64,000 nucleotides of DNA. Origin: Candidatus Pacebacteria bacterium CG2_30_36_39 (lineage in GTDB: Bacteria; Patescibacteriota; Microgenomatia; UBA1400; PJMF01). Below the pieces are notes generated by a model. That model was not told where the DNA came from and did no database searches. It saw only the letters and a program-made list of their open reading frames with translations. Positions 2,556 to 60,373 of this stretch are shown here, one piece after another; positions within the stretch are counted from its first letter, which is position 1, and each line of letters begins with the position of its first letter. The translations under genes were made by a program, and so were the position numbers. The stretch spans positions 206,031 through 270,030 of the forward strand of contig MNZB01000003.1 in the NCBI GenBank assembly GCA_001873435.1, written 5' to 3'.

Positions 2556-2584
2556 ATTATAGCACAATAAGCCTATAATATCAA
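2556..2584 (-). promoter_or_regulatory. Sigma70-like promoter for unit A, read on the minus strand: TTGATA-17 nt-TATAAT with an upstream TG (extended -10)
   Basis: Revcomp of 2551-2590 reads ctaTTGATAttataggcttattgTGcTATAATtacag. The spacer is 17 nt. It lies about 100 nt upstream of the start at 2452. Confidence 0.5.
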
Positions 2585-2637
2585 TAGTAGAGATGTATTG
2601 GTTGAGTTTGAAAAAGAACGAAATTTATATATTTTGG

Positions 2638-2678
2638 CTGTAAACGTGAAAACAGGGTGGCTTTTGGCCACCCTGTTT
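2638..2678. terminator. 41-bp hairpin repeat, copy 2; intrinsic terminator downstream of minus gene 2746..3288
   Basis: Identical to 1837-1877. The stem-loop is followed by a T-tract on both strands (ttttgggg on plus). Confidence 0.6.
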
Positions 2679-2745
2679 TGGGGTATTACACTTGCACGGA
2701 GGAGAGAGGATCCAGCGCTATTCGATTGTAGCCGAGAGCCGCAGG

Positions 2746-3288
2746 TTACGCGCTGAGTTTTGAAGTCAGGGCGCGGACCTTGCGAGCCGAGGAGGTTGCC
2801 GAGCGGGACTGGCGGATGGTCTGGTTCACGAACGTCATGGAGACGGTCGCTTCCTTCTCAGCCTGTTCCATCCACTTGTCAACCTGATCGGGACTGATCT
2901 TGGCGAGTGTCAAGACCGTCTCGAACGCTTCTTGCTGTTCGCCGGCGAGGGCTTCAGCGCGTTCAGCGCGGGTCTTCATCGCGGGATATTTGTCCGCCAC
3001 GGCTTTGGCGCCGGCGAGAGCCTTGTTCAGGCGCTCGATTTCCTTGTTCGCGGTGCTGAGTTGGGACTCGAGACTGCGGACTTCGGAAATGTGGGCAAGG
3101 TGCTTCGGGAAGGAAGCGGCGATGCGACCGAATGAATCGGCATCGTGCAGGTCGGTCAGAGCGCCGAAGGCGGTCTGCAGATTGCTGGCTTCCTGGCGGG
3201 CTGCCAGGTTGGCGCGCATGGAGGCAAAGTTATCGGACAAGCCGAAAACGCCGGACGCGGGGACGATGGGTTCAAAAGTTTTGGTCAT
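2746..3288 (-). CDS. Hypothetical Ala-rich coiled-coil protein (unit B of the GC-rich module)
   Basis: 180-aa ORF at ~60% GC. An AGGAG SD lies 7 nt upstream of the ATG (revcomp of 3289-3310). It has its own promoter and terminator. The composition resembles phage scaffold or phasin-like proteins, but there is no diagnostic motif. Confidence 0.5.
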   Translation of the reverse strand: MTKTFEPIVPASGVFGLSDNFASMRANLAARQEASNLQTAFGALTDLHDADSFGRIAASFPKHLAHISEVRSLESQLSTANKEIERLNKALAGAKAVADKYPAMKTRAERAEALAGEQQEAFETVLTLAKISPDQVDKWMEQAEKEATVSMTFVNQTIRQSRSATSSARKVRALTSKLSA

Positions 3289-3349
3289 GGGTAGTACTCC
3301 TTGAGTTTTTTTTGGCTATTTAAAGCCGAATATGCAGTTTCACCTTTTT

Positions 3350-3423
3350 CTGAGTGCAGCGCACTCAGTATTTGGATTACGCAGTCAAAAACCTAAAAAT
3401 AAGTTTCTCACTGCGCAATCCAA
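3350..3423 (-). promoter_or_regulatory. Palindromic elements in the long 5' leader of unit B: a hairpin at 3350-3368 (ctgagtgc-agc-gcactcag) and a 14-bp inverted repeat at 3372-3385/3410-3423
   Basis: The hairpin has two perfect 8-bp arms (CTGAGTGC/GCACTCAG) around a 3-nt centre. TTGGATTACGCAGT pairs with ACTGCGCAATCCAA with one mismatch across a 24-nt spacer. Both lie between the predicted TSS (~3538) and the start codon at 3288. They could be operator-like or RNA structural elements. Confidence 0.3.
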
Positions 3424-3545
3424 TTTGGATCACAAGCAAAAAAATCAAAGAAGTAAAAACCTCTTTTCTATGTGCAATGTAAATGTGCGGTTGTTAGTGC
3501 CTTAGTGCATCGTAGTGATGCGTTAGGCGACTGACAACGAGGGGA

Positions 3546-3574
3546 AGTATAGCAAAATGAGCCTATAGTGTCAA
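3546..3574 (-). promoter_or_regulatory. Sigma70-like promoter for unit B, read on the minus strand: TTGACA-17 nt-TATACT
   Basis: Revcomp of 3541-3580 reads ctaTTGACActataggctcattttgcTATACTtcccc. The spacer (ctataggctcattttgc) is near-identical to the unit A promoter spacer (ttataggcttattgtgc). Confidence 0.5.
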
Positions 3575-3838
3575 TAGTTAAAATTATATCTGGTAGTGTA
3601 TTAGCAGTTTACCAGACTAAATATATATTTTATATTGTTATTATATATTTGTTATAAGACTGTTATTTCTATTACTATAACTATATATAAGTAGTCTTTG
3701 CTGACTAATTTGTGTTACTATATATTTGTAGTAAGCCAGTTGATTATCATTTTTCTTGTTTTTTATTGTGTGTCGTAATATTCACTTTTAAACAAAAAGC
3801 GAATGGGCTTAACTACCTAAAATGGATGAAAAAATGTT

Positions 3839-9005: not shown

Positions 9006-10424
9006 ATGCAGAAAATGCTCAAAAGAACCAAGATTGTAGCTACTATTGGTCCAGCCACAGAAACAGAAGAAGTTATTGGTCAATTGATTGATGCTGGTAT
9101 GAACGTAGCTCGTTTTAATACCAAACACGGTACTCCAGAATGGCATCGTGAGCGGGTTCAAAGAGTTCGTAAAGTTGCTGCTGAAAAAGGTTTGCCAGTA
9201 GCAGTATTACTTGATTTACAGGGTCCAGAAATTCGCGTAGATTTACGCGATGGTCAAGCTTTTTCAGTTCGTGATGGTGAAGAGGTATTTTTTACTTTTA
9301 ACAAGCAATCAACTGAAGAAAAAGTAATTTTTATTCCTGAAAACGTAGTAGATACTTTGCAAATTGGCAACTTTGTTCTTTTGGATGATGGTGCTTGTGA
9401 ATTTGAAATAGTAAAAAAAGAAGATGATTTTTTAATGGCAAAAGCTCTAGGTGATTTTGAAGTAAAAACTAGAAAAACTATGAATACTCCTGGTATTGTT
9501 ATTGATATGCCCTCATTGATCGATCCAGATCGTGTACAACTTGATGGGGCTGTAGAGACTGGAGTTGATTTTGTTGGTCTATCATTTGTAAGGGACAAAG
9601 AAGATATTAAAATTTTACGCGATGAGCTAGACAAGCGTGGTCTTAAGGACACCAGTATTGTTGCCAAAATTGAGAATCAATCAGCCTTGGACAATCTTGA
9701 TGAAATCATCAATGCCAGTGATGCTGTTATGGTGGCTCGTGGCGATTTGGCTGTAGAAGTACCTTTTGAGCAATTGGCTTTTTGGCAAAAACTCATTATT
9801 ACCAAATGTCGTTTGGCTGGTAAACCAGTAATTACTGCCACTCAAATGTTGAAATCAATGGTTGAGAGCCCACGTCCCACTCGTGCTGAAGTAAGTGATG
9901 TTGCCAACGCTGTTTACGATAGTACAGATGCAGTCATGCTTTCTGAAGAAACAACTATTGGTAAGTTTCCAGTTAAAGCAGTTGAGACTCAAGCAAAAAT
10001 TGCAGCTTTCAATGAAGAATATGAAACATCATATTTGGATGAATGGGAAGATGAAACTGATCCAAGTTTAGTTGCTCACGCAGCAGTTTATTTAATGCAA
10101 AATGAGGAGAATTCTATTGATAGTGTTGTGTGTTTGACTGAGACTGGTAATACTGTTAACTTATTAACTCGCTTTAGACCAAAAGTAGATGTTCATGCTT
10201 TGACTAGTAATGAACTTACTTATCGTAAATTAGCTCTTAATTATGGTGTAATTCCTCATATTGTGGAGTTTGCTGGCGGCAAGATTGAAGAGCCAAATGC
10301 TATGGTAGAAATTCTAAAAGAAAAAGGAATTGTAAAATCCGGAGAAACTGTTTTGGTGATTTATGGCACTATTTGGAAGACACCAGGATTAACCAATAGC
10401 TTGTCAATTGTTCATGTTAAATGA
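9006..10424 (+). CDS. pyk: Pyruvate kinase
   Basis: 472 aa. N-terminus RTKIVATIGPA...NVARFN, K+/Mg2+ site motifs, MVARGDLAVE, and a C-terminal allosteric domain. Confidence 0.9.
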   Translation: MQKMLKRTKIVATIGPATETEEVIGQLIDAGMNVARFNTKHGTPEWHRERVQRVRKVAAEKGLPVAVLLDLQGPEIRVDLRDGQAFSVRDGEEVFFTFNKQSTEEKVIFIPENVVDTLQIGNFVLLDDGACEFEIVKKEDDFLMAKALGDFEVKTRKTMNTPGIVIDMPSLIDPDRVQLDGAVETGVDFVGLSFVRDKEDIKILRDELDKRGLKDTSIVAKIENQSALDNLDEIINASDAVMVARGDLAVEVPFEQLAFWQKLIITKCRLAGKPVITATQMLKSMVESPRPTRAEVSDVANAVYDSTDAVMLSEETTIGKFPVKAVETQAKIAAFNEEYETSYLDEWEDETDPSLVAHAAVYLMQNEENSIDSVVCLTETGNTVNLLTRFRPKVDVHALTSNELTYRKLALNYGVIPHIVEFAGGKIEEPNAMVEILKEKGIVKSGETVLVIYGTIWKTPGLTNSLSIVHVK

Positions 10425-41909: not shown

Positions 41910-42428
41910 TTACTCTGGAATAACTACTTTTAATTCTTTAATTGCTTTACTAAGGGCAGGTTTTAGCCTATGTGAAATACTTGTGAGCTGTCCACCATGA
42001 TTCCTTTGTATTTCTTGATTATGTGTGTAAAGGTTTATTTCTTCGTTGTATAGAGCAACTTCGTTATAAAGACTAATCAAGGATTTTTGTTCTTCAGGTT
42101 TCCACCAATATAAATACATTTTCGTTGATTCCCATGCCGAATCCGGAAATCTCCTATTCCTTGGTAGGTCCTTAACCATATCACTCATCTGCATAATCTC
42201 AGCGTGAATCCAATTCTTGGCTTGTTCAACTCTTTCCATTTTTTCTCTTTCGTCTTTAGCTCTCTCTTTTTTTGCCCTTTCTAACTCTGTTTTTTGAGAC
42301 TGTTCTACCGTGGCATCAATGCTTTTCCTTGTAGCCCAGATAGTTGCAAGGGCACCTGCAGCAGAGCCAATTACACCACTTCCTAATGAGAGAAACACTT
42401 GAAACCAGTCAATCATATTAATGTTCAT
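41910..42428 (-). CDS. Hypothetical TM + coiled-coil protein; last gene of the hydrolase-NTase operon
   Basis: 172 aa. N-terminal TM (WFQVFLSLGSGVIGSAAGALATIWA) then a K/E-rich coiled coil. Start overlaps the upstream gene's stop by 4 nt. Confidence 0.4.
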   Translation of the reverse strand: MNINMIDWFQVFLSLGSGVIGSAAGALATIWATRKSIDATVEQSQKTELERAKKERAKDEREKMERVEQAKNWIHAEIMQMSDMVKDLPRNRRFPDSAWESTKMYLYWWKPEEQKSLISLYNEVALYNEEINLYTHNQEIQRNHGGQLTSISHRLKPALSKAIKELKVVIPE

Positions 42429-43489
42429 TTATATTCCTCCGGCAACTCAATCCCAAACCTCTCACAAAGTGCTTTAACATCATGGAAGTCGCTCGCTCTC
42501 AGCTTATATCCTGTATGAAATTTGACCATCCACTCTGGAGAAATACACTTCACCTCTATATTGTCAACACAACCTTTGCCGCTAAGTGCATCTTTATGAT
42601 AGGAATTGCCGTTTTCTACTGGGCCATAAATACCATTGCCATTTTCATCTAAATTAATAACATGAAAATCAACGAATCGAGCATTTTTGTCACCCATGAT
42701 AAAATTCCAGTCGGTTTCATCACCTCTTTTTACTCGATTAAAACCTCTTACTTTAAGTAGATTAACTACGGAAGTCACGTCCTTTTGTTGAAGAACTAAA
42801 TCAAGGTCACCATGAGCTCTAGTTTGCTTCTCCAATAGAGCATCAACGCCCCAGCCACCATCAAGCCAAAATTCAATATTTTTATCTTTGAATTCTTTTA
42901 TAAGTTCCAACACATACTCCTCTGTCATTGCATCACCCGCGATATGATGCAAAAGAAAAGGAAACTGTCTATATGCTTCGCCAAATGTGCCAACGCTAAA
43001 ATGCTTTTGTCCTGGCAAAACAATTAAATCGCCACCAATTTTTTCATATAGGTATTCAGCGTGCTCGAGAGGGCAATAGGGGTCATTATCTGAGTGGATG
43101 AAGTACCATGTCAGAGACTTTGAATTAATTTTCTTAAAGTCAAATGGTGTGATGAAAAGGTCTTTAAGAGAATCCCATCCCAAATCATCTTTGAATGAAC
43201 CCACTAAGTAGCAGGCTTTGACAACAACACCCTCTGGCAATGCTTGCAAAAGACCGAGAGTAGCTACAGCCCCTGATGAGTGACCAATGATTGTGGTCTC
43301 CTCATCAAACTTCCAGTTTTTGTTGCTCAAAATGAATTCGTTATATCTCTGAATATTGGGTTTATCAGCTCCAGGCAAGTTAGGTGTCCAAACCTCGTAA
43401 CCTCGTGACTTTAATTCAGTCTCAAGCCAAGGAAACCAATTTTCTTGGGAATTGCCGTTTGTGCCGTGGAGGATGAGCGCTTTTTTCAT
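42425..43489 (-). CDS. Fusion protein: N-terminal alpha/beta serine hydrolase (RBBP9/YdeN-like) + C-terminal ANT(2'')/Lnu-type nucleotidyltransferase
   Basis: 354 aa. N-terminal ILHGTNGNSQENWFPWL with nucleophile elbow GHSSG. The C-terminal half aligns to ANT(2'')-Ia: WLDGGWGVDALLEKQTRAHGDLDL vs WIGGGWAIDARLGRVTRKHDDIDL. Its tail VKCISPEWMVKFH compares with VRCNSWEAIIWDY. Confidence 0.7.
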   Translation of the reverse strand: MKKALILHGTNGNSQENWFPWLETELKSRGYEVWTPNLPGADKPNIQRYNEFILSNKNWKFDEETTIIGHSSGAVATLGLLQALPEGVVVKACYLVGSFKDDLGWDSLKDLFITPFDFKKINSKSLTWYFIHSDNDPYCPLEHAEYLYEKIGGDLIVLPGQKHFSVGTFGEAYRQFPFLLHHIAGDAMTEEYVLELIKEFKDKNIEFWLDGGWGVDALLEKQTRAHGDLDLVLQQKDVTSVVNLLKVRGFNRVKRGDETDWNFIMGDKNARFVDFHVINLDENGNGIYGPVENGNSYHKDALSGKGCVDNIEVKCISPEWMVKFHTGYKLRASDFHDVKALCERFGIELPEEYK

Positions 43490-45264: not shown

Positions 45265-45542
45265 ATAAGCTTCATTTTAACTCAAAAAAGCTCTACACCA
45301 AAACCAATATTGCAAAGTATGCAAAAATTCACAACATAAATAATCGCTAGTTGAGGTATAATATCCCCATAACAAAGAGATGACCTAAACTTGGTTTTTC
45401 GAAATCAGGCATGGTCAAAAAACTCACAACGGTTAAAGCCCCTCGCTGGGGAATTCGTTGTGAGTCGTACAGGGAAACTTGTGCGGGTGGAGACACCTAA
45501 ACCGGCGGGGGACTTTTGCGTCTTCCGGCCGAAAAGGCCGCA

Positions 45543-46238
45543 ATGAAAAAACTACGACAACTAATTACATCAATTCTTCCAGCAGTTTTATTATTGCTTT
45601 TAATTGGTACTGGTGTAGCCTTTGCACATTACCGCGAGCAACAAATCACTCAACGTGTTCAACTTGTGGTTTCACCAACCCCAACATTAAAACCAACCTC
45701 AAATCAGTTTCCAAGGGCAACCCCATTACCAAACACTGTACAACCAACCACCAAAAAAGCTTTTGACAATATTACTTGTACAGGGCCTGACGGTAAGCAG
45801 TTCCAAACTACTCAGAAAGAATGTGAAAACTTCAACGCCGCCTGGGGCAACACCTCTAAAACTCAACTAGCACCTGCTGATTTACCAAGTCAACAAAAAT
45901 ACACTGAAACCCAAAATGGACAAAAACAGCCACCTTGTACCGTTGGTGGTTATACCTATTATTACACTGACCCCACTACTTGTGCCCGTTGGCAACAAGA
46001 ACAAAAAGAATTTGAAGAATCACTAAACAATATACAGTACGTTTTTACTCCACCAGATACCACGACTATTCAACCAGATAATACCGTAGCGAAAGAAGCT
46101 TGCAAGTCCGCCGCACAATCCGAATATAACTCAGCAGTAGCCGCTGCTCAAACCTATGGCGGCAATGTGCAGACTGCAGCATTAGAGATTACTCGCAATG
46201 ACCTTAATTATAAACTTGGAAAATGTGAAGGCTTATAA
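45543..46238 (+). CDS. Secreted Thr/Gln/Pro-rich protein with conserved Cys pairs
   Basis: The ORF track starts at 45516 (TTG). The ATG giving MKKLRQLITSILPAVLLLLLIGTGVAFA is a classic signal peptide and has an AAAGG SD, so it is the likelier start. The mature protein has 6 Cys. Confidence 0.45.
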   Translation: MKKLRQLITSILPAVLLLLLIGTGVAFAHYREQQITQRVQLVVSPTPTLKPTSNQFPRATPLPNTVQPTTKKAFDNITCTGPDGKQFQTTQKECENFNAAWGNTSKTQLAPADLPSQQKYTETQNGQKQPPCTVGGYTYYYTDPTTCARWQQEQKEFEESLNNIQYVFTPPDTTTIQPDNTVAKEACKSAAQSEYNSAVAAAQTYGGNVQTAALEITRNDLNYKLGKCEGL

Positions 46239-47256: not shown

Positions 47257-48204
47257 ATGAACATTTCATTTTCCCTTCCCAAAGATAGAGTAAAAATGTT
47301 GTTTGACCCCAAGATAGCTAAATCGGTGGGAACTGACTCGGCCATTATTCTACAAAATATTGAATACTGGGTAACTCGTAAAGAAGAAGAAAGCTCAGAT
47401 TCGAATTTTCATGGTGGGCACTACTGGACTTACAACAGCTCCAGAAGATTCGCCGAGATATTTGACTGGATGCATGAACGAAAGATTGCCCGATGCCTTC
47501 AAAAACTTGAAGTAAAAGGTTATCTTATCTCTGGTAATTACAACAGGCATCAGTATGACCGCACAAAATGGTATTCACTCAAATGCAACCGACAAGATTG
47601 CACACTTTGCAATGGTATCAACCAAAAACGTCTAAAAGATTCACCTGCCAGTTCTGATGCTGGTGACAACAATGTCCAACCTATACCAGATACTAAACAC
47701 AGAGTAAATAAACCACCTATTAATCATTATTCTGGTTTGGAGCAAACCAGTGTACATGTAGAGGTAGATGACACCAACTTTCTTTCTCTTGGTTCTGAGC
47801 GAAGCTCGAGCGAGCGGTCTAAAGGCGATAGCCGTAGCGTAAAAAACCGCCCAATGAGTAAGCGATTAGCCAACAAGGCTCGAACACTTAGAGAAAGATT
47901 AAGCCTTGTTCATGGCTACAACATTCATTTCTATGAAGCTTGGGAAGAGAAATTTAGGAAGCCCTATCCATGGTCAGAAGATTACGAAAGCGAAGAAGTG
48001 TGGGAAAAAATGAAGGAATTAGAGCAAGAATGGGGAGAAGAATTTGAAGTATTGATAGAGCTTTACTTGCTTCAAGAGTTCAGAGGAAAGACAAATTCTA
48101 GGATACATCACTTTCTATCTGACCGAATTCAAAACAACCTTCAAAATAAGATTATTACCTCAAGTATGAAAAATGAACATAGAGAAAAAATACGCGGATG
48201 TTAA
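47257..48204 (+). CDS. Hypothetical protein with an N-terminal winged-helix-like DNA-binding region and acidic C-terminus (possible replication/regulatory protein of an integrated element)
   Basis: 315 aa. The N-terminal ~110 aa (IEYWVTRKEE...HGGHYWTYNSSRRFAEIFDWMHERKIARCLQKLEVKGYLISGNY) resemble phage/plasmid replication-initiator or DnaD-like wH domains. Serine- and acid-rich C-terminus. Confidence 0.35.
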   Translation: MNISFSLPKDRVKMLFDPKIAKSVGTDSAIILQNIEYWVTRKEEESSDSNFHGGHYWTYNSSRRFAEIFDWMHERKIARCLQKLEVKGYLISGNYNRHQYDRTKWYSLKCNRQDCTLCNGINQKRLKDSPASSDAGDNNVQPIPDTKHRVNKPPINHYSGLEQTSVHVEVDDTNFLSLGSERSSSERSKGDSRSVKNRPMSKRLANKARTLRERLSLVHGYNIHFYEAWEEKFRKPYPWSEDYESEEVWEKMKELEQEWGEEFEVLIELYLLQEFRGKTNSRIHHFLSDRIQNNLQNKIITSSMKNEHREKIRGC

Positions 48205-48702: not shown

Positions 48703-50253
48703 ATGAAAAATAAAAAAGAAACAATCAATATAAATAGAGCCTGTCTATATCTAAGGTTTAGCGATGATAAGCAAATTGGTGGAACATCAATTGCAGTTCA
48801 AAACAAATCATGTCGTGACTACTGCGCAATACATGAATGGAAAGTAGTAATAGTTGAGAAAAACGAAGCAGTCACAGCTAAAACCTCAAATATCCGTAGA
48901 GTTGCAGAATTACTAGAATTTTGCAAAAGAAATAAGGGTAAATTTGAGGTACTCGTGGTCTTCAAGCTTAATAGATTTGCTCGAGACCAAGCAATGCACC
49001 ATTATCTGAGGTCAGAACTTCTAAAATTAGGTATTTTATTACGTTCTGCCACTGAACCAATAGATGAAACTCCAATGGGTAAGTTAACTGAAGGAATATT
49101 AGCTGCTTTAGCTGAGTTTGATAATGGTGTTAAGTCTGAAATGGTTAAAGCAGCTCTTTGGCGCAGAGTTGAGGAAGGCATGTGGCCATGGCATCCGCCA
49201 CTTGGCTATATGTCAATTCGTCAAAAGGATGAGAAAGTGAAAGCTCACGTACCAGACCCAGGGCTTGAGCAAGCAATTATTGACCTTTTCACCAGTTTCT
49301 CAACGGGCACTGTCTCTCAATTCGATTTGTCAAAAGAGTATGCAGCCAAGAAATTAACAGACTATAAAGGGAGAACAATTAAATTTTCACCCCAGTCGGT
49401 CAATAATATTCTTAACAACCGCTACTATATGGGAATCTTGGTTCATGAAGATGGCAGGCATATCCAAGGAAAGCATAAAGCTATTATTAAGCCAAGTTTG
49501 TTTGAGAAATGCCAGTATATCTTGCACAAAAAGTCTAATGGCACCGCTGGAAGTCAACGACTGCACGATAACCCAGAATTTCCCTTGAAACCAACCTTGC
49601 GCTGTGCAAGTTGCAAGGAGTTATTGACGGCTCAGTTTTCCAACTCTGCAAGAGGTACTAAGCATCCTCATTACTTTTGCAGAAATAATAAGTGCAATTT
49701 ATTTCGTAAAACGTACAAGCGGTCAAAATTAGAGAATGAGTTTGGCATCTATTTGCGACAAATTAAACCAACTAAAGAGTTTGTAAAGCGGTTCCAGGAG
49801 AGATTCCTGGACCGCTACAAAACCCGTGAGCTAGACCTAAAAGGTGAGTATTTGCGAAAGCTTGGAGATGTGCAAAAACTCGAGAAAGACCTTAAGTTTG
49901 TTATTGACCAAGGTAAGAAGGGAGTTTTGAAAAATGACACTTTCAAGAATGCTATTGAGGAAGTTGAATCAAAGCTTAGTTTAGCAAAAATGTCACTGCG
50001 AGAAACTCATGGAGAAGAGATTGACGTTCAGCTTTTGATGGCTTATGCGGAGAGCTTTATTCAAACCATTGAAAAAGTCTGGTATGACGCTCCATTTGAG
50101 ATTAAGAAGAAAATTCAGAATTTTGTTCTGCCTGGTGGCGTTTACTTAACTAAGACCAGAGAAGGCTATTTTTTTTCGAACCCTCAATTAGGTGGATTGT
50201 TCCAACTAATTCAGGATTTTGGTGCTGATGATTCAACTGTTGTGACCCCATAG
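48703..50253 (+). CDS. Large serine recombinase (integrase)
   Basis: 516 aa. Resolvase catalytic domain with the Ser nucleophile in YLRFSDDKQ. Recombinase domain. Zinc-ribbon Cys cluster (CASCKELL...HYFCRNNKCN). C-terminal coiled coil. The last 11 nt overlap the 3' end of tRNA-Glu. Confidence 0.8.
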   Translation: MKNKKETININRACLYLRFSDDKQIGGTSIAVQNKSCRDYCAIHEWKVVIVEKNEAVTAKTSNIRRVAELLEFCKRNKGKFEVLVVFKLNRFARDQAMHHYLRSELLKLGILLRSATEPIDETPMGKLTEGILAALAEFDNGVKSEMVKAALWRRVEEGMWPWHPPLGYMSIRQKDEKVKAHVPDPGLEQAIIDLFTSFSTGTVSQFDLSKEYAAKKLTDYKGRTIKFSPQSVNNILNNRYYMGILVHEDGRHIQGKHKAIIKPSLFEKCQYILHKKSNGTAGSQRLHDNPEFPLKPTLRCASCKELLTAQFSNSARGTKHPHYFCRNNKCNLFRKTYKRSKLENEFGIYLRQIKPTKEFVKRFQERFLDRYKTRELDLKGEYLRKLGDVQKLEKDLKFVIDQGKKGVLKNDTFKNAIEEVESKLSLAKMSLRETHGEEIDVQLLMAYAESFIQTIEKVWYDAPFEIKKKIQNFVLPGGVYLTKTREGYFFSNPQLGGLFQLIQDFGADDSTVVTP

Positions 50254-50314
50254 GGAGTCGAACCCTACTTACCAGGATGAAAACCTGGTGTCCTAACCGA
50301 TAGACGATGGGGCC
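50243..50314 (-). tRNA. tRNA-Glu (anticodon UUC)
   Basis: The minus strand reads GGCCCCA...TGGGGTC acceptor, anticodon stem-loop CCAGG-TTTTCAT-CCTGG and T-loop GGTTCGACTCC. The 3' end overlaps the recombinase stop region. Not in the ORF track. Confidence 0.8.
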
Positions 50315-54193: not shown

Positions 54194-54838
54194 ATGGAAT
54201 TTATCTCTGGAATAATTAGTTTTATTTTACACATTGATACGCACTTAACTGACTTGACCTCTACTTATGGTGCTTTAACGTATGGAATTTTGTTTTTAAT
54301 TGTTTTTGCTGAAACAGGATTTGTGGTAACTCCATTTTTACCAGGAGACTCACTTTTATTTGCGGCAGGTGCCTTAGCAGCCCTGGGAACTATGAATATT
54401 TGGATGATTGTGGGAATTTTATTGGCAGCTGCTATCTTGGGGGATGCAGTCAATTATTGGATTGGCCATTTTTTTGGGCAAAAAATCATTGAAAGCAAAA
54501 AATTTCCTTTGATTAAAAAAGAACATATTGATGAGGCACAAAAGTTTTACAATAAATATGGTGGTAAAGCCATTATGTTATCTAGATTCGTACCAATCGT
54601 CCGTACTTTTGCACCTTTTATTGCTGGTATTGGAAAAATGAACTACGCTCAATTTTTAATGTATAACGTTCTTGGAGGTACAGTTTGGATTTTGCTATTT
54701 TCTTTTGCTGGCTTTTTCTTTGGTAATATCCCCAGTGTCAAACATAATTTTACTTTAGTAATCTTAGGCATTATTGCTATTTCTGTTGTTCCAATTATTT
54801 TTGAGACACTAAAAGCAAAGAAAAATAAAAATAAATAA
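54194..54838 (+). CDS. DedA/SNARE-associated family membrane protein
   Basis: 214 aa. DedA signature FAETGFVVTPFLPGDSLLFAAG. Confidence 0.7.
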   Translation: MEFISGIISFILHIDTHLTDLTSTYGALTYGILFLIVFAETGFVVTPFLPGDSLLFAAGALAALGTMNIWMIVGILLAAAILGDAVNYWIGHFFGQKIIESKKFPLIKKEHIDEAQKFYNKYGGKAIMLSRFVPIVRTFAPFIAGIGKMNYAQFLMYNVLGGTVWILLFSFAGFFFGNIPSVKHNFTLVILGIIAISVVPIIFETLKAKKNKNK

Positions 54839-54846
54839 TCAATAAA

Positions 54847-55299
54847 ATGATTGCTAAATTACAAAATTGGGATTCTTCATTTTGGCAAGAGTGGTTGTCT
54901 AAAGCTCCTGTGCTTTGCGTTGATGCTGTTATTTTTAATCAAAAAAATGAAGTTCTTTTAGTTAAGCGCAACACTCAACCATCTGAAGGTCTTTGGCATT
55001 TGCCAGGCGGTGTAGTGAGAAAAAATGAGTTATTGGAAAATACTGTGAAGAGAGTTGTTGCTACTGAGGTTGGTAGTATTGATTTTGAGATAATTGAAAT
55101 GTTAGGAGTTTTTGATGATCCAAAAAGAGATCCTAGGGGTCATTTTGTAACTTGCGCTTTTAGATTAAAAACTAGTTCAGAGGTAGGTCCTTTCAATTCT
55201 CAGGGTGAAGCAATTAAATATTTTAATAATTTGCCAGCTATTCTTGGCTTTGATGCAAAAAAAATCATCGCTAAAGCAAAAGCTAAAGCGATGATTTAA
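54847..55299 (+). CDS. NUDIX hydrolase
   Basis: 150 aa. Nudix box region GGVVRKNELLENTVKRVVATEVG. Confidence 0.7.
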   Translation: MIAKLQNWDSSFWQEWLSKAPVLCVDAVIFNQKNEVLLVKRNTQPSEGLWHLPGGVVRKNELLENTVKRVVATEVGSIDFEIIEMLGVFDDPKRDPRGHFVTCAFRLKTSSEVGPFNSQGEAIKYFNNLPAILGFDAKKIIAKAKAKAMI

Positions 55300-55313: not shown

Positions 55314-57266
55314 TTAAACTTCAGGTTCTGTCTTTGGCAGTTCATCAGTTGAGTCTACAGTTGGAGCAGTTGGTGTTGCTACTTTGCCAATTTCAGCCAA
55401 GGTAGTATCAATGGCTTCCTGGGCATTAGTAGCAACCTCTACAACCTTTTCTGTTGGGTCGGTTGTCTCTACTGTAGGAACATTTTCTTGAGTTGCTGTT
55501 GGTTCGGCATTTTCAATGGGTGTAGTAGGAATTACTGGGGAGGGTGGAATGTTCATTGGAGGCTGACTATCAGCGACGAAAGGATTTGGGGCAACCATAG
55601 TTGGTGCAGTAGTCACTGCTGCTGCTCCCATGGAGAGAGGCTCATTAACTGTTTCTACTGGAGTAACTTGAGTTTCTGTTATTGCTACTGGAGTTGGAAT
55701 AGTTGGAGGTGTTGCTGCTGCTGGAGTTGGAACAACTGGAGGCATAGTAGGTTCTACCACTGGAGTAGGAGCAACTGGAGCTGCTACTTCTTGAGTTGCT
55801 ACCGCATCAGCAGGAGCAAATGGGTTTGGAGCTTGGGTAGCAACTGGTGTAGCTACTGTTTGTGTTGGTGCAGTGACATCAGTCACTGGATTTGTTGGTT
55901 GAGAATTCATATCTGAACTTTCTCCTTGATTATTTGTTACTTGGACAGGAGTTGGATTCGTGTTTATTTGGTCTTGGGCAATAGTTTGATTGATAACTTC
56001 ACCTTCAATATTTTGTTGTTCAATTGCAATATAAATATCGGCTAGACGGTTGTATTTTTCTACGGCTTCTCCACGATTTGTTGGTCCAAATTTTACAAAA
56101 TCTGCCCCAACACCAACAGCAAAATCAGCTAAAAAATTATCATTAGTTTCTCCACCCCTTTGTGAAACTACAATATTCCAACCAGCATTTTTAGCAGTTT
56201 TAACTGCTTGAATTGCCTCTGTGATAGTGCCGGTTTGACTAGGCTTAATAATAACTGTGTTAGCATATTTTTGATTAACAGCTTCTTGAATTTTTGCTTG
56301 GTCAGTAACAGTGAAAGCATCTGTGGCTATTCTAGTTGTGTTGCCAAGATCAGAAGTAAAGTTTTTCCATGTTTCAAGATCTTGAGTAGTAAAAGGATCT
56401 TCAAAATATGTAATGTTGTATTGTTCTTTGAGATTTTTGTAATAATCTAGAATGTCTTTACTACTATAAACAGCTGTCTTATCTCGAAGGATATATTTTC
56501 CTCTATCGACTAAATTTTCTGCACCAGAATCAAGGCCAAAGAAAAAATCTCTCGATAAAATGTATTCAGTCTTATGTGCTGCTTCAATAATAAAATCAAA
56601 AACATCAGTATTTTTTTGTAAAGCAGGAGTAAATCCTCCTAAAATTCCAGTTGAATAACCAGCTTTTCTTCCTTTTAAAATATTTAGCAAACTTTCTCTA
56701 ATAGCACTCTCAATCTCCAGTGCCACCCTATAATCAACATGGCTAGCGGGTAGAATTAAAAATTCCTGTAAATCTAAATTTCCAGACCCATATTTACCAC
56801 CATTTACTAAGCCAAAAATACAATTTGGTATTTCTAGTTCATTGGTTAAATGGTATTGCTCAAACAAATATTGATAAACAGCTGTGCCATTAATAGCAGC
56901 ACCAGCCTTGCAAATAGCTTGAGAAATTACAGCTAATGAATTTGCTCCGAATTGTTTTTTTTGTTCTAAAGGATTTTGTCCTAAAAGAATTTTATCTAAA
57001 GCTTCTTGTTGGGTAGGATCTTGTCCAATTAGTAGTGGAGCTAAATTTTTATTTATTAAAGAAATAGCTTTTTGAACTCCCCTACCACTACGATGATCCG
57101 GATCATTGTCAACTAAAACTGGAGCCTCATTGGCTAGATGCTGAGAGCTATTGGGAATGCTGCTTTCAACATAGAAACCATCGTCAGTCCACAAAGAAAC
57201 CTGTATGGTTGGAATACCTTGGGAATCTAATATTTCTTTAGCAACAATGGCACGAATGGCAGACAT
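55314..57266 (-). CDS. eno: Enolase-family protein with divergent active-site residues and a ~220-aa Pro/Thr/Ala/Val-rich C-terminal extension
   Basis: 650 aa. The N-terminal ~430 aa align to enolase (ILDSQG..., FGANS, IIKPSQTGTITE, VVSQRGGETND, FVKFG). At conserved catalytic positions it has GGKYGSGN instead of GGxHADN, TGILGG instead of GDEGG, and SQRGGET instead of SHRSGET. The equivalents of K345, K396, D246 and E290 appear retained. The tail is low-complexity (PTPV/APT repeats). Confidence 0.8.
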   Translation of the reverse strand: MSAIRAIVAKEILDSQGIPTIQVSLWTDDGFYVESSIPNSSQHLANEAPVLVDNDPDHRSGRGVQKAISLINKNLAPLLIGQDPTQQEALDKILLGQNPLEQKKQFGANSLAVISQAICKAGAAINGTAVYQYLFEQYHLTNELEIPNCIFGLVNGGKYGSGNLDLQEFLILPASHVDYRVALEIESAIRESLLNILKGRKAGYSTGILGGFTPALQKNTDVFDFIIEAAHKTEYILSRDFFFGLDSGAENLVDRGKYILRDKTAVYSSKDILDYYKNLKEQYNITYFEDPFTTQDLETWKNFTSDLGNTTRIATDAFTVTDQAKIQEAVNQKYANTVIIKPSQTGTITEAIQAVKTAKNAGWNIVVSQRGGETNDNFLADFAVGVGADFVKFGPTNRGEAVEKYNRLADIYIAIEQQNIEGEVINQTIAQDQINTNPTPVQVTNNQGESSDMNSQPTNPVTDVTAPTQTVATPVATQAPNPFAPADAVATQEVAAPVAPTPVVEPTMPPVVPTPAAATPPTIPTPVAITETQVTPVETVNEPLSMGAAAVTTAPTMVAPNPFVADSQPPMNIPPSPVIPTTPIENAEPTATQENVPTVETTDPTEKVVEVATNAQEAIDTTLAEIGKVATPTAPTVDSTDELPKTEPEV

Positions 57267-57312: not shown

Positions 57313-58398
57313 TTATTTTTTGAGTTCTTCTTTGAACATATCAACATAAGGAATGGGACTTGGGTCTATTCCTTCTAAAATACTGAGATAGAAACCAGAG
57401 TAACTCATTAGGGTAATTAGTTCAAAAACTTGAGTTAGTTTTGTTTCAGCAGTCAAATGAATTGCCATGCTTTCAATTTCATTATGCTCAACAATGGTTT
57501 GGGTGATTTTCATTCTCTTCTGATTTCTTTCATCATATAGATTAGAGTTGAAGAATAAAAAGAAATGATTTAAAGCATTGCTTTTTGGAAACTTCAGACC
57601 TTCAAGTAAATGATGATTCATCTCTGGTATTGCCTTGAAATCAGCAAAAATCTTGGCATTTTCATTCCACTGATTGGCAGCAACATGAGCAGCTCCTTTT
57701 AAGAATTGGCTAGCTACAAACACAGGTCTTCGTTCAACACTAGAAAATGCTAAAAGCTTGGCTTGATTTTCTTCTTGTGGTACTTCTACTCTAAGTTTTT
57801 CAGAAGTACTAATAATAGTTGTAATTACCTCATCGATTTCTTCTTGAAGAATATTTGTTACTCCAGCGGCATTCATTAGGCCAAATAGACCAACTAAAGC
57901 ATAACCCAAAGCCATTCTCGGTTGGTTGGAAGGATTGTGAACGGGATTGATTACATAGGCTGGATAATTTTCTTTTTTAGCTAGCTCAACCAAATCTCCT
58001 CCAGCTGCAATTATTGCTACCTGAGTTTTTCTTTCTTTAACTTGTTCAATACAGTTAAGTACTTCTTCAGTTGTTCCAGAATAGCTAGATAGGATGACTA
58101 AAGTTTTTTCATTAACATAGGCTGGTAAAAAATAGTCGTTATAGATCTCAAAAGGAACCATTAACTGATCGGCAAAAAGATGTTTAAAAACATCTGCTCC
58201 TAATCCTGAGCCACCCATACCAACGACCACTACTTGCTCAATTTTTTCTTTTTTAGCAAATATAATTTTTTGAGTATCATCCCAAGCATGTTTGACTTGG
58301 TCGGCCAAAGCATCAATAGAACCCATCATGTTTGAGAGGTCTAATTTGGCAATTGAATCTCTAGAATTTAAAATAGCTGTTGAATTATTATTTGTCAT
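57313..58398 (-). CDS. SIS-domain bifunctional phosphoglucose/phosphomannose isomerase (archaeal-type PGI/PMI)
   Basis: 361 aa. SIS motifs (VVVGMGGSGLGADV; ILSSYSGTTEE). Length and architecture fit the PGI/PMI family. Confidence 0.5.
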   Translation of the reverse strand: MTNNNSTAILNSRDSIAKLDLSNMMGSIDALADQVKHAWDDTQKIIFAKKEKIEQVVVVGMGGSGLGADVFKHLFADQLMVPFEIYNDYFLPAYVNEKTLVILSSYSGTTEEVLNCIEQVKERKTQVAIIAAGGDLVELAKKENYPAYVINPVHNPSNQPRMALGYALVGLFGLMNAAGVTNILQEEIDEVITTIISTSEKLRVEVPQEENQAKLLAFSSVERRPVFVASQFLKGAAHVAANQWNENAKIFADFKAIPEMNHHLLEGLKFPKSNALNHFFLFFNSNLYDERNQKRMKITQTIVEHNEIESMAIHLTAETKLTQVFELITLMSYSGFYLSILEGIDPSPIPYVDMFKEELKK

Positions 58399-58416: not shown

Positions 58417-58941
58417 TTAGTCTTTTAAATATTTTTTTACTTTTTCAATAATTATTTCTACATTACGAAATGCTAATTTTTGAGGAATTTCTTTTAATGA
58501 GAACCATTGCAAATCTGCTACATCATCTTGAGCAATTGGTTTTTGTTCAGGATCTTTTGCCTCAACTAAATACAAAAAAGGAATAGAAGGTCGTTCATTA
58601 TAGATATCCCAGACAGAACCTAAAAATTCTTTAATCTCAACATCTAAACCAGTTTCCTCTTTCATTTCTCTAATTACCGCTTCCTCGCAAGACTCCCCTG
58701 CTTCAATAAAACCACCAAGAATATCCCATTCTCCGAATTTTGGTTCAATTCCTCTTTTTGCTAACAATATCTTTCCATCTTTAATTAAAGCAATAGAAGT
58801 AGAGGCAGCTGGATTGTCATACCAGGAATTACCACATTTATTGCACTGCACACTATTTTTATCAATATCACCATGTTCCAATTCATTGCCACATTGAGGA
58901 CAGAATTGGTAGAGCTGATGAAATTTAGTGTGCAGTGACAT
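58417..58941 (-). CDS. NUDIX hydrolase with an N-terminal zinc ribbon
   Basis: 174 aa. CPQCGN...CNKCGN zinc ribbon followed by Nudix box GGFIEAGESCEEAVIREMKEETGL. Confidence 0.65.
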   Translation of the reverse strand: MSLHTKFHQLYQFCPQCGNELEHGDIDKNSVQCNKCGNSWYDNPAASTSIALIKDGKILLAKRGIEPKFGEWDILGGFIEAGESCEEAVIREMKEETGLDVEIKEFLGSVWDIYNERPSIPFLYLVEAKDPEQKPIAQDDVADLQWFSLKEIPQKLAFRNVEIIIEKVKKYLKD

Positions 58942-58951
58942 ATCTTTCTTA

Positions 58952-60373
58952 TTAATCTAAAGCGTGAGTATTGACGCCTGATTTCCAATCGATTTCTGGA
59001 TATTTTTTAAGTACTTCTCTTAGAGTTTTTTTCATAGCATCATAGTCTGCTTGAGTTTTACCTTCGAATTTAACAGTAATATATGGACCATTTTGTGAAG
59101 CTCTGACGATAGCCATTTCTTTGTCGGTGTCCATACGAATACCATCAATATCAATATAATCAGCTTTTGGCCATAAAGATTTGAATTCTTGACGAATTTT
59201 AGTGTCAATAAATTGGAATTTAATCTCGTCTGCTAGGCCAAACTTAATTTCTGGACTACTAACATAAATAGTTAATTCTCCGACTGCTTCACTAAGCTTC
59301 ATGTTTTTTCTCTCCAAATATTGAAGTAGACGCAAACTGGCATAAGCACCATCATCGTGACCATAGAAATTATCCATGAAGAAGATGTGGCCAGATAATT
59401 CACCCCCAAATGGAGAGCGAGCTTCTTTAACCTTAGCTTTAATAAATGAGTGACCGGTCATCCACATTACTGGTTTGCCACCAGCCGCCTCAATGGCTTC
59501 AGTTACTTGTCTAGAACAAAGAGTGTTATAGACAATTGGAGCACCGGGAATGAAGTCTAAAACATCTTTAGCAAATAAAGCGACAATAGTGTCCATCCAA
59601 AGCACTTTGCCATTTTCATCTACCACTGCCATACGATCACCATCTGTATCGTAGGCAAAGCCGATATCTGCTCCAGCTTTTTTAACGCCAGCAGAAAGTC
59701 TTTCTAGCACTTCTACTTCAGTGGGATCTGGAACGCCTAATGGGAAGTTGCCATCTAACTCGCAGTTTTGTTCAATAATTTCACAACCTGCTTGACGAAG
59801 AAGCTCTGGATAAAATTTGCCAGAACCAGTGTTGCAACCCTCAACTACAACCTTCCACTTTTTTTGGAGGTTAAAGTATTTGTTGATTTCATCGCGATAA
59901 ATTGGAAACAAATCAAATTCTCTATTTTTACCTTTGCCTTCAGAGTATTTGCCTTTTTCAACCAATTCTTTCATGTACAGAATTTCTTCTGCAATCATAG
60001 TGTCTGAATAGCCCACTCCCAATTTTAAGCCATTAAAGTCTTTGGGGTTGTGAGAGGCAGTAATCATGGCGCCACCCTTAGTTTTAAATTCATAACTAGA
60101 AAAATAGACTATTTGACTTAAGCTTAAGCCAATATAGATAGTGTCTATTCCTCCATCGTTAAGGCCTTGGATGAAAGCTTTACTAAACTCCACACTGGTT
60201 AAACGGTTATCATGTCCAACAGCAGATTCTTTAATTCTGCGTTCGGCTAAAAAAGTGGCATAAGCACGACCCATGGTGTAGTAGACATCGGCATTAAGTT
60301 GTTTACCAACTACGCCGCGAATGTCGTAGCCACGAAAAATGGTGGGATCGATTTTTTTCACTATTGAATACAT
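58952..60373 (-). CDS. Phosphoglucomutase/phosphomannomutase (alpha-D-phosphohexomutase superfamily)
   Basis: 473 aa. Active-site Ser loop TASHNP. Metal-binding DTDGDR (FAYDTDGDRM). Sugar-binding GELSGH. Confidence 0.8.
   Translation of the reverse strand: MYSIVKKIDPTIFRGYDIRGVVGKQLNADVYYTMGRAYATFLAERRIKESAVGHDNRLTSVEFSKAFIQGLNDGGIDTIYIGLSLSQIVYFSSYEFKTKGGAMITASHNPKDFNGLKLGVGYSDTMIAEEILYMKELVEKGKYSEGKGKNREFDLFPIYRDEINKYFNLQKKWKVVVEGCNTGSGKFYPELLRQAGCEIIEQNCELDGNFPLGVPDPTEVEVLERLSAGVKKAGADIGFAYDTDGDRMAVVDENGKVLWMDTIVALFAKDVLDFIPGAPIVYNTLCSRQVTEAIEAAGGKPVMWMTGHSFIKAKVKEARSPFGGELSGHIFFMDNFYGHDDGAYASLRLLQYLERKNMKLSEAVGELTIYVSSPEIKFGLADEIKFQFIDTKIRQEFKSLWPKADYIDIDGIRMDTDKEMAIVRASQNGPYITVKFEGKTQADYDAMKKTLREVLKKYPEIDWKSGVNTHALD

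What the first reader, a model, noticed from the sequence alone, without database searches (positions are those of the whole stretch)
55314..57266. Enolase homologue with substituted catalytic residues and a ~220-aa Pro/Thr-rich surface-like tail
The fold and several ligand residues are conserved. Positions equivalent to the catalytic His/Glu in GGxHADN, GDEGG and SHRSGET read GGKYGSGN, TGILGG and SQRGGET. The protein may therefore be a weakly active or inactive pseudo-enolase. The C-terminal 220 residues are low-complexity PT/PA/PV repeats, like cell-surface or mucin-like linkers. Enolase moonlights as a surface adhesin in many bacteria. Here the gene may have been repurposed as a structural or adhesive protein. 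This would also mean canonical enolase activity is missing from this locus.
Basis: partly seen in the sequence, partly recalled or inferred. Interest (0 to 1): 0.6.

Follow-up and report, generated by a model that had tools for sequence, protein, structure and literature searches.

The report
Remodelled enolase with disordered docking tail
A groundwater ultra-small bacterium (Candidatus Pacebacteria) carries, in the normal enolase position, a well-conserved enolase-fold protein that lacks the residues needed for the enolase reaction and has gained a 218-residue acidic, floppy tail with conserved docking motifs, so automatic annotation as a working glycolytic enolase is probably wrong.

Summary
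ORF 55314-57266 (-) encodes 650 aa: a confident enolase fold (residues 1-432) followed by a 218-aa Pro/Thr/Val/Ala-rich acidic tail.

- **Active site.** Against yeast and E. coli enolase, Glu211 is Leu, His159 is Tyr, His373 is Gln, and the Ser39 metal-II loop is rewritten. The Mg(I) triad, Lys345, Lys396, Glu168, Gln167 and Arg374 are kept.
- **Family.** 22 tailed relatives, all Pacebacteria, share Tyr159/Leu211/Gln373. In this clade 11 of 14 pocket positions are invariant, against 30% of core columns, so the pocket is remodelled, not decaying.
- **Orthology.** Synteny makes it the positional orthologue of enolase, at the end of a stepwise series:
  - canonical relatives have PEPS-enolase-iPGM;
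  - a large sister group has Glu211-less enolase next to a PEPS that lacks its phospho-His domain;
  - the tailed clade has lost both PEPS and iPGM from the locus.
- **Tail.** It is predicted to be disordered and evolves fast, but it carries conserved motifs, including a universal Q..IDSTLAEIG helix. It has no signal peptide, anchor or DNA repeats, so a surface adhesin is not supported.
- **Open problem.** Pyruvate kinase is retained across the lineage, so the source of PEP is unexplained.

Best reading: an exapted, tethered ligand-binding or altered-chemistry module. I could not check the whole genome for a second enolase.

The parts
55314..57266 (-). Whole ORF, 650 aa plus stop: enolase-like core and tail. 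It equals NCBI PIR65106.1 'hypothetical protein COU63_00335'.
56865..57257 (-). Enolase N-terminal domain (residues 4-134)
   Evidence: Pfam PF03952, E=3e-30; pLDDT about 90
56031..56831 (-). Enolase C-terminal TIM-barrel domain (residues 146-412)
   Evidence: Pfam PF00113, E=6e-59; Foldseek against PDB enolases gives target-normalised TM 0.87-0.93
57123..57155 (-). Loop 1, PNSSQHLANEA, in place of PSGASTGxxEA. The Ser39 position (metal-II ligand) is Gln here and varies within the clade.
56778..56801 (-). GGKYGSGN. The His159 equivalent is Tyr159, invariant in 22 relatives.
56634..56651 (-). TGILGG in place of GDEGG. The general acid Glu211 equivalent is Leu209, invariant in 22 relatives.
56145..56165 (-). 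SQRGGET in place of SHRSGET. His373 is Gln369 (invariant), Arg374 is kept, and Ser375 is Gly here (Ser or Thr in relatives).
56229..56540 (-). Retained catalytic and metal residues within this span: Asp246 (FGLDSG), Glu289 (=yeast Glu295) and Asp290 (=yeast Asp296) in FEDPF, Asp316 (=yeast Asp320) in ATDAF, and Lys341 (=yeast Lys345) in IIKPSQTG. Lys392 (=yeast Lys396) lies further 3' at 56082-56096.
55317..55970 (-). Acidic Pro/Thr/Val/Ala-rich tail predicted to be disordered (residues 433-650)
   Evidence: pLDDT below 50; composition; present in all orthologues
55818..55826 (-). NPF motif 1 (residues 481-483), conserved in subclade P0001-P0009
55578..55586 (-). NPF motif 2 (residues 561-563)
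55620..55640 (-). PLSMGAA, the counterpart of the LSLGETP motif of close relatives
55545..55565 (-). QPPMNIP motif (QPPMNxP / APxNTPP in relatives)
55386..55424 (-). AQEAIDTTLAEIG: an acidic amphipathic helix motif, universal in the tailed clade, 20-45 residues before the C-terminus
   Evidence: (helix 616-624)
57313..58398 (-). Upstream same-strand gene: PGI/PMI-type SIS isomerase. This syntenic anchor is shared with canonical and Glu211-less enolase loci.
58952..60373 (-). PGM/PMM, a syntenic anchor of the same gene string
9006..10424 (+). Pyruvate kinase with intact motifs, the consumer of PEP in the same genome

Best explanation
**Shown.**
- The gene is the positional orthologue of enolase in one sub-lineage of Candidatus Pacebacteria (CPR).
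- Its core is a stable enolase fold.
- It keeps the half of the active site that binds Mg2+ and a carboxylate and abstracts the alpha-proton: Asp246, Glu295, Asp320, Lys345, Lys396, Glu168, Gln167, Arg374.
- It has replaced the residues that carry out and support dehydration of 2-phosphoglycerate. Glu211 is Leu, His159 is Tyr, His373 is Gln, and the Ser39 metal-II loop is rewritten.
- The replacements are fixed in all 22 relatives.

**Inferred.**
- It no longer works as a conventional enolase.
- It still binds a 2-PG/PEP-like Mg-carboxylate ligand, or at most performs a partial or altered reaction.
- The 218-aa acidic disordered tail acts as a flexible tether. Its conserved short motifs (NPF, LSLGETP-like, QPPMNxP, and the universal Q..IDSTLAEIG helix) dock the core to one or more unknown cytoplasmic or membrane-proximal partners.
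- In short, a moonlighting role of enolase has become its main role.
For: - **Fold and domains:**
- **Residue map:**
- **Fixation of the new pocket:** 11 of 14 pocket positions are invariant in the tailed clade, against 30% of core columns (P=1.8e-4).
- **Core conservation:** the core is as conserved as the neighbouring PGI within the clade (58-77% against 63-80% identity).
- **Positional orthology and stepwise decay of the PEPS-enolase-iPGM module:**
- **Tail disorder:** pLDDT below 50, with one helix exactly at the conserved motif.
- **Tail evolution:** the tail is acidic in all 22 members. It evolves 3-4 times faster than the core, with indels, yet keeps motif islands.
- **Established knowledge:** in yeast enolase the E211Q, H159A and S39A substitutions each cut activity by 10^3 to 10^5 fold. 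This is from memory (Poyner/Reed, Vinarov/Nowak, Brewer) and was not re-read here.
Against: - Pyruvate kinase is intact here and retained across the tailed lineage. PEP must therefore come from somewhere, yet PEPS is gone from the locus.
- The strongly conserved pocket would also fit a still-active enzyme.
- The protein scores above the TIGR01060 enolase equivalog cut-off (333 against 300 bits).
- No partner of the tail is identified. The helix motif was found in no other protein family among 1.84 billion representatives.
- Whether ligand still binds is inference only.
Confidence: 0.45

Rival explanations
1. It is still the cell's enolase and uses a non-canonical acid catalyst (for example Glu168, Tyr159 or water) in place of Glu211. 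The tail merely localises it or keeps it soluble.
For: - Pyruvate kinase is retained lineage-wide and looks intact.
- The gene sits in the ancestral enolase slot after PGM-PGI.
- The pocket is under strong purifying selection.
- It passes the TIGR01060 cut-off.
- No second enolase is in the window. None of the 119 nearest homologues lies on the large contigs that carry tailed proteins, judged by matching contig lengths.
- The sister Glu211-less clade stays next to iPGM and overlaps its start in one locus.
Against: - Four independently important positions are changed at once: Ser39 loop, His159, Glu211, His373.
- Single substitutions at these positions are crippling in yeast enolase (established knowledge).
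- iPGM and PEPS have been lost from the locus exactly in the clade with the extra substitutions.
- Position 39 varies freely within the clade, so the metal-II site is not maintained.
Confidence: 0.2
2. It is a neofunctionalised enzyme. It keeps metal-assisted alpha-proton abstraction, as enolase-superfamily members do, but acts on another acid-sugar or phospho-acid substrate, or on a leaving group that needs no general acid.
For: - Superfamily-level residues are retained and invariant: three metal carboxylates, Lys345, Lys396.
- New residues are fixed in the clade: Tyr159, Gln373, Glu186, Arg190, Tyr206, Ser347.
- The phosphate and metal-II contacts (Ser39, Ser375, His159) are the ones relaxed or changed.
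Against: - To my knowledge the enolase subgroup has no member with another activity.
- No new pathway genes co-occur at the locus.
- An enzyme does not obviously need a 140-260 aa docking tail.
Confidence: 0.2
3. It is a cell-surface adhesin or structural protein. The enolase fold is displayed outside the cell on a mucin-like Pro/Thr stalk.
For: - Pro/Thr-rich composition resembles extracellular linkers.
- Enolase is exported without a signal peptide and binds host molecules in many bacteria (searches list such papers).
- CPR bacteria live attached to other cells (general knowledge).
Against: - There is no signal peptide, membrane segment, sortase signal or wall-binding domain.
- The tail is at the C-terminus and ends in a polar acidic peptide.
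- The catalytic pocket is conserved far above background.
- The tail carries short conserved motifs typical of intracellular docking peptides.
- There are no tandem repeats.
Confidence: 0.08
4. The tail is an artefact: read-through, a frameshift, or an assembly chimera joining enolase to non-coding or another gene's sequence.
For: None found. The only hint was that iPGM, which follows enolase in relatives, is missing here.
Against: - The identical ORF occurs in many independent assemblies.
- All 22 orthologues carry tails with shared motifs.
- GC3 of the tail equals that of the core, and the chance of an open frame is 3e-5.
- iPGM and PEPS proteins give no tblastn match in the tail region or elsewhere in the window.
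Confidence: 0.01

Closest known systems
Canonical enolase / phosphopyruvate hydratase (EC 4.2.1.11; TIGR01060; PF03952+PF00113), e.g. E. coli Eno, yeast Eno1, human ENO1
   Same: - Two-domain fold: target-normalised TM 0.87-0.93, rmsd 1.6-2.3 Å.
- 32-35% identity.
- Mg(I) ligands, Lys345, Lys396, Glu168, Gln167 and Arg374 are kept.
- Same genomic slot as the enolase of related CPR bacteria.
   Different: - Glu211 is Leu, His159 is Tyr, His373 is Gln, and Asp321 is Ala.
- The Ser39 loop is rewritten and Ser375 is Gly.
- It has a 218-aa disordered C-terminal tail.
- The iPGM and PEPS neighbours are lost.
Glu211-less ~423-aa 'phosphopyruvate hydratases' of other Pacebacteria/Patescibacteria (P0023-P0090 here; named as enolase in NCBI/JGI). 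I found no description of them in the literature.
   Same: - Closest relatives, 45-52% identity.
- Same synteny: YgjP-holA-PGM-PGI-...-LexA.
- They also lack Glu211 and Asp321.
- A few also carry Pro/Thr-rich tails (P0023, P0046, P0056, P0084).
   Different: - They keep Ser39, His159, His373 and Ser375.
- Their position 211 is variable (V, G, D, Q, N, S, T, A, L).
- They remain flanked by iPGM and a truncated PEPS-like gene.
- Most have no tail.
Moonlighting or recruited enolases: surface plasminogen-binding enolase of Gram-positives and Mycoplasma, degradosome enolase bound to RNase E, tau-crystallin (alpha-enolase as a lens protein)
   Same: An enolase fold is used for a role other than glycolysis, through protein-protein contacts.
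   Different: Those proteins keep a complete active site and activity (tau-crystallin has reduced activity) and have no dedicated disordered tail. Here the catalytic set is changed and the docking element is built into the protein.
Globular domain plus disordered linker plus conserved C-terminal peptide architectures (FtsZ C-terminal linker and peptide, SSB tail and tip, RNase E C-terminal scaffold)
   Same: - A long linker that varies in length and sequence and has low complexity.
- Short conserved motifs that are the only constrained parts.
- The motif lies near the C-terminus.
   Different: There is no sequence relationship. The partner is unknown. The tail is uniformly acidic and lacks the basic RNA- or membrane-binding segments of RNase E.

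Membership tests
Enolase (EC 4.2.1.11) | N-terminal alpha+beta domain plus C-terminal TIM barrel; profile score above the curated cut-off | tested here: met
   Pfam PF03952 and PF00113; TIGR01060 333 bits against a cut-off of 300; Foldseek target-normalised TM about 0.9
Enolase (EC 4.2.1.11) | Mg(I) ligands Asp246, Glu295, Asp320 | tested here: met
   All three present and invariant
Enolase (EC 4.2.1.11) | Catalytic base Lys345 and carboxylate-binding Lys396, Gln167, Glu168 | tested here: met
Enolase (EC 4.2.1.11) | General acid Glu211 (GDEGG) | tested here: not met
   Leu (TGILGG), invariant Leu in 22 relatives
Enolase (EC 4.2.1.11) | His159 and His373 (loop closure, phosphate contact, proton relay) | tested here: not met
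   Tyr and Gln, both invariant in the clade
Enolase (EC 4.2.1.11) | Ser39 loop (PSGASTG) providing the metal-II ligand | tested here: not met
   PNSSQHL here; the position varies (Q, K, E, S, T, R, L) in the clade
Enolase (EC 4.2.1.11) | Catalyses 2-PG <-> PEP | not testable with these tools
   Needs an enzyme assay or complementation
Enolase superfamily (metal-assisted alpha-proton abstraction from carboxylates) | Three carboxylate metal ligands on barrel strands plus a Lys base | tested here: met
   Asp246, Glu295, Asp320 and Lys345 retained; weak MR_MLE_C match
Pseudoenzyme (catalytically inactive homologue) | Loss of one or more essential catalytic residues | tested here: met
   Glu211, His159, His373, Ser39
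Pseudoenzyme (catalytically inactive homologue) | Demonstrated lack of activity; pocket free to drift | tested here: inconclusive
   Activity is not testable here. The pocket is not drifting: 11 of 14 positions are invariant.
Secreted or wall-anchored surface adhesins with Pro/Thr stalks | N-terminal signal peptide | tested here: not met
   The N-terminus MSAIRAIVAKEILDSQG is the first enolase strand. Maximum hydropathy window is 1.16 and lies inside the core.
Secreted or wall-anchored surface adhesins with Pro/Thr stalks | C-terminal anchor (LPXTG plus hydrophobic segment plus basic tail) or a wall- or S-layer-binding domain | tested here: not met
   Ends ...DELPKTEPEV with no hydrophobic stretch. 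Pfam finds no domain in the tail.
Linker-plus-docking-peptide hub architecture (works like, not a homology family) | Length-variable disordered linker with conserved short motif(s) near the terminus | tested here: met
   Tails of 98-263 aa; motif islands; helix at 616-624
Linker-plus-docking-peptide hub architecture (works like, not a homology family) | Identified binding partner | not testable with these tools
   No other motif carrier in flanking genes or in 1.84 billion representatives

The most novel reading that the evidence does not exclude
A whole Pacebacteria radiation (the Glu211-less ~423-aa proteins plus this tailed clade) has only an enolase orthologue without the textbook general acid, while keeping pyruvate kinase (and, in the untailed group, iPGM). 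If there is no second enolase, one of three things must hold:
- these proteins catalyse 2-PG dehydration by a new mechanism;
- the supposedly monofunctional enolase subgroup has evolved a new reaction;
- these symbionts obtain PEP by an unrecognised route.

In all three cases, metabolic reconstructions that score 'enolase present' from profile hits are wrong for this lineage.
Probability: 0.25. Interest if true: 0.85.

Novelty: new variant of a known kind. Interest (0 to 1): 0.6.

Why it matters
- **Annotation.** Enolase is treated as an isofunctional, near-universal marker enzyme. HMM-based reconstructions of CPR metabolism would count this protein as enolase, because it passes the TIGR01060 cut-off. 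This clade shows a conserved, selected enolase fold with the dehydration machinery removed and a built-in docking tail.
- **Evolution.** It is the endpoint of a visible stepwise series: canonical, then Glu211-less with truncated PEPS, then tailed without iPGM or PEPS. That offers a natural experiment in how a core glycolytic enzyme is exapted.
- **Testable questions.** Where do these symbionts get the PEP that their retained pyruvate kinase uses? Can an enolase active site work without Glu211?

Tried and rejected
- **Read-through or fusion with a decayed iPGM.** tblastn of iPGM and PEPS proteins from related loci against the window found nothing in the tail. The N-terminal Pro/Thr extensions of iPGM in relatives share none of the tail motifs. 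Rejected.
- **Tandem repeats in the tail.** None found.
- **Second enolase.**
  - None in the window.
  - Matching contig lengths found no other homologue on the large contigs among the 119 nearest relatives. The list is truncated, so a distant canonical copy is not excluded.
- **iPGM in tailed-lineage genomes.** The best 120 relatives of a sister-clade iPGM include none on tailed-lineage contigs. The list stops at 67% identity, so this is inconclusive.
- **Other carriers of the tail helix motif.**
  - A regular-expression search in the window and 17 loci found only the enolase tail.
  - A profile search of 1.84 billion representatives found only family members plus one repetitive chance hit.
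- **Compensating acid residue.** Group-specific conservation analysis found no new fixed Asp, Glu or His in the Glu211-less clade. In the tailed clade the new fixed residues are Glu186, Arg190 and Tyr206, of unknown position relative to the pocket.
- **Promoter and terminator scan.** No more sites than chance, and no sign that the tail is expressed separately.
- **Literature.** Six full-text searches found no description of Glu211-less or tailed CPR enolases.
Full report
**1. What is in the sequence**

- The minus-strand ORF 55314..57266 starts with ATG and encodes 650 aa.
- Pfam places Enolase_N at residues 4-134 and the Enolase_C TIM barrel at 146-412.
- phmmer against PDB sequences gives only enolases, with human ENO1 best at E=1e-74 over residues 4-411.
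- An AlphaFold2 model built from a 56-sequence alignment has pLDDT of about 90 or more through the core. Its last helix extends to residue 432.
- The model superposes on solved enolases with target-normalised TM 0.87-0.93 and rmsd 1.6-2.3 Å.
- The exact protein is in public collections as a 'hypothetical protein' of Candidatus Pacebacteria bacterium CG10_big_fil_rev_8_21_14_0_10_36_11.
- It has been assembled independently many times from groundwater metagenomes; the index lists it in 81 blocks.

**2. Active site**

I aligned 120 homologues with yeast Eno1 and E. coli Eno and read the catalytic columns in yeast numbering.

Kept:
- Gln167, Glu168
- Asp246, Glu295, Asp320 (the Mg(I) ligands)
- Lys345 (base), Arg374, Lys396

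Changed:
- Ser39 to Gln; the loop reads PNSSQHL instead of PSGASTG
- His159 to Tyr
- Asp210-Glu211 to Ile-Leu
- Asp321 to Ala
- His373 to Gln
- Ser375 to Gly

The blocks around each site align without gaps and are flanked by invariant residues (NGG, QEF, GG.xP, R.GET).

From established mutagenesis of yeast enolase (recalled, not re-read here), E211Q, S39A and H159A each cost three to five orders of magnitude in activity.

**3. The family**

- 22 full or nearly full relatives (P0001-P0022, P0026; 511-676 aa), all from Pacebacteria/Paceibacterota where named, share Tyr159, Leu211 and Gln373. All have tails.
- The next ring of about 69 proteins (~423 aa, often named 'phosphopyruvate hydratase') keeps Ser39, His159, His373 and Ser375.
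  - It lacks Glu211. The position is variable: V in 48 of 69, also G, D, Q, N, S, T, A, L.
  - It mostly has Ser at position 321.
- Canonical GDEGG proteins of other CPR bacteria come only after that.
- A neighbour-joining tree (no support values) shows the tailed clade as one long-stemmed group nested inside the Glu211-less radiation. That radiation is in turn nested in CPR enolases.

**4. Orthology by synteny**

| Type | Example loci | Gene order |
|---|---|---|
| Tailed | window/L001, L007, L009, L015 | YgjP-like, holA, PGM/PMM, (NUDIX), PGI, enolase-like, then VTT/DedA or another membrane protein, LexA, Cob_adeno_trans, CTP synthase, L19 |
| Glu211-less | L011, L014, L016, L017 | Same frame, with PGI followed by a PEPS-like gene, then enolase, iPGM and LexA |
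| Canonical | L013 | PGM, PGI, full three-domain PEPS (758 aa), enolase, iPGM (494 aa) |

- In the Glu211-less loci the PEPS-like gene has lost the phosphohistidine domain. It is 616-617 aa with PPDK_N plus PEP-utilizers_C, or only a 321-aa PPDK_N.
- In the same loci iPGM is 565-675 aa.
- The tailed protein is thus the positional orthologue of enolase.
- The PEPS-enolase-iPGM module changes stepwise, and the tailed clade is the endpoint where both neighbours are gone.
- The window holds no second enolase, iPGM or PEPS, and no other lower-glycolysis gene among the ORFs I scanned.

**5. Selection**

- Within the tailed clade the core is about as conserved as the adjacent PGI: 58-77% against 63-80% identity for the same genome pairs.
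- Of 403 core columns, 30% are invariant in the clade.
- Of 14 pocket positions, 11 are invariant, including the substituted Tyr159, Leu211 and Gln373 (hypergeometric P=1.8e-4).
- The three free positions are Ser39, Asp321 and Ser375, which are the metal-II and phosphate contacts.
- This is the signature of a remodelled, still-used pocket, not of a decaying one.
- Further clade-specific fixed residues are Gly152, Glu186, Arg190, Tyr206 and Ser347.

**6. The tail**

- Residues 433-650 are T 18%, P 18%, V 13%, A 13% and E 8%, with 25 acidic against 3 basic residues.
- There is no Cys, His, Trp or Tyr and no hydrophobic segment.
- GC3 is 0.19, like the core at 0.18. The chance that the frame stays open is 3e-5.
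- There are no DNA tandem repeats.
- AlphaFold gives pLDDT below 50 except for a short helix at 616-624.
- All 22 tails are acidic and 98-263 aa long.
- Between close pairs the core is 88-95% identical while the tail is 59-77% identical with many indels.
- Conserved islands (coordinates):
  - the helix extension EIEQQMLEGENM just after the core;
  - NPF and LSLGETP in the P0001-P0009 subclade;
  - QPPMNxP / APxNTPP;
  - in every member, [AV]Q..IDSTLAE[IL]G, 20-45 residues from the end. This is the predicted helix, and its hydrophobic face is I, L, I among acidic residues.
- The motif occurs nowhere else in the window or in 17 related loci.
- A profile of it found only family members in 1.84 billion representative proteins.
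- No other ORF in the window has such a segment: the maximum P+T+A fraction in a 60-residue window is 0.68 here and at most 0.48 elsewhere.

**7. Metabolic context**

- The window encodes:
  - an intact-looking pyruvate kinase;
  - a 2-oxoacid:ferredoxin oxidoreductase pair;
  - a flavodoxin;
  - a D-2-hydroxyacid dehydrogenase.
- Pyruvate kinase is retained at 64-83% identity in relatives. These include proteins on the same contigs as tailed proteins P0020 and P0021, and one from the same genome as P0011.
- These organisms therefore consume PEP, which the best explanation leaves unaccounted for.

**8. Interpretation**

- *Shown:* real gene, enolase fold, orthologous position, loss of four catalytic elements, fixation of the new residues, a conserved pocket, and a tail predicted to be disordered that carries conserved motifs.
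- *Inferred:*
  - The protein is not a conventional enolase.
  - It still binds a Mg-carboxylate ligand such as 2-PG or PEP, or performs a partial or altered reaction.
  - The tail tethers it to partners through its motifs.
- I put about 0.45 on this tethered-binding-module reading, 0.2 on an altered enzymatic activity and 0.2 on a still-functional unconventional enolase.
- I put under 0.1 on a surface adhesin, because there is no signal peptide, anchor or repeats and the pocket is conserved.
- An artefact is excluded.

**9. Comparison and novelty**

- The protein fails the membership test for functional enolase at Glu211, His159, His373 and Ser39. It passes the fold, profile and metal-site criteria, and TIGR01060 scores 333 bits against a cut-off of 300.
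- It works like linker-plus-docking-peptide proteins (FtsZ, SSB, RNase E scaffold), without any homology to them.
- Six literature searches found no description of Glu211-less or tailed CPR enolases.
- A Microgenomates genome paper simply lists 'enolase' as present (PMC7143001), as profile-based reconstructions would do here.
- I rate it a new variant of a known kind.

**10. Limits**

- I could not scan the rest of the genome for a second enolase or for iPGM.
- The contig-length trick and the iPGM search were inconclusive.
- Activity and binding are untested.

Noticed in passing
Related loci L011, L014, L016, L017; proteins P0023-P0090: A large Pacebacteria/Patescibacteria clade of ~423-aa proteins annotated 'phosphopyruvate hydratase' lacks the general acid Glu211. 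The position is variable: V, G, D, Q, N, S, T, A, L. Most members also lack Asp321. All other catalytic residues are kept, and the protein is as conserved as iPGM (71-73% identity). This may matter more than the tailed protein itself.
   Followed up: partly
L014 8119-9969, L016 2425-4275, L017 3934-5787, L011 9029-9994: In the Glu211-less loci the PEPS/PPDK-like gene upstream of enolase is a conserved 616-617-aa ORF with PPDK_N and PEP-utilizers_C but no phosphohistidine swivel domain, or only a 321-aa PPDK_N. The canonical relative L013 has the full 758-aa three-domain PEPS.
   Followed up: partly
L014 11354-13381, L016 5985-7916, L017 7611-9413; proteins P0121-P0240: iPGM of the Glu211-less lineage carries an N-terminal Pro/Thr-rich extension (median 70 aa, up to 243 aa in 120 relatives). 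A conserved PI[LIV]SS.P[FM][DN]S segment lies just before the core. The nucleophile motif reads GNTETGH (Thr, not Ser) in CPR loci, including the canonical one.
   Followed up: partly
L015 11761-12405; L007 12012-12653; window 54194-54838 (+): A VTT/DedA-family membrane protein gene lies next to the tailed enolase-like gene. In L015 its start overlaps the enolase-like stop codon, in L007 it is 68 bp downstream on the same strand, and in the window it is convergent. It is a possible functional partner.
   Followed up: no
Proteins P0071, P0094 (418-419 aa): A second, untailed divergent pair of enolase homologues has His159 as Phe/Leu, His373 as Glu/Lys and Arg374 as His/Glu. They group next to the tailed clade in the NJ tree.
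   Followed up: no
window 45382-45497 (+): LOOT RNA (Rfam RF03000), 77 bits against a gathering score of 46.4, just upstream of a small membrane-like ORF at 45516-46238.
   Followed up: no
window 48703-50253 (+) and tRNA 50243-50314 (-): A large serine recombinase (Resolvase plus Recombinase domains in the identical loci L001-L006) abuts a tRNA gene. Several ORFs beside it have no domain hit on record (47257-48204 also gave none in my own Pfam scan). This may be an integrated element.
   Followed up: no
window 38413-40311 (-) and 42425-43489 (-): An AAA_15/AAA_21 (AbiEii-like) ATPase, and a fusion of a serine hydrolase with an aminoglycoside-2''-adenylyltransferase-like domain. These may be defence or resistance genes in a CPR genome.
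   Followed up: no
window 2001-4000: GC content jumps to 0.45 against about 0.35 elsewhere. ORFs 1904-2452 and 2746-3288 have no Pfam match, and no Rfam family was found there.
   Followed up: no
window 54847-55299 (+) and 58417-58941 (-): Two NUDIX hydrolase genes bracket the PGI and enolase-like pair in this subclade (also in L009). They are absent from the other tailed subclade and from the Glu211-less and canonical loci I read.
   Followed up: no
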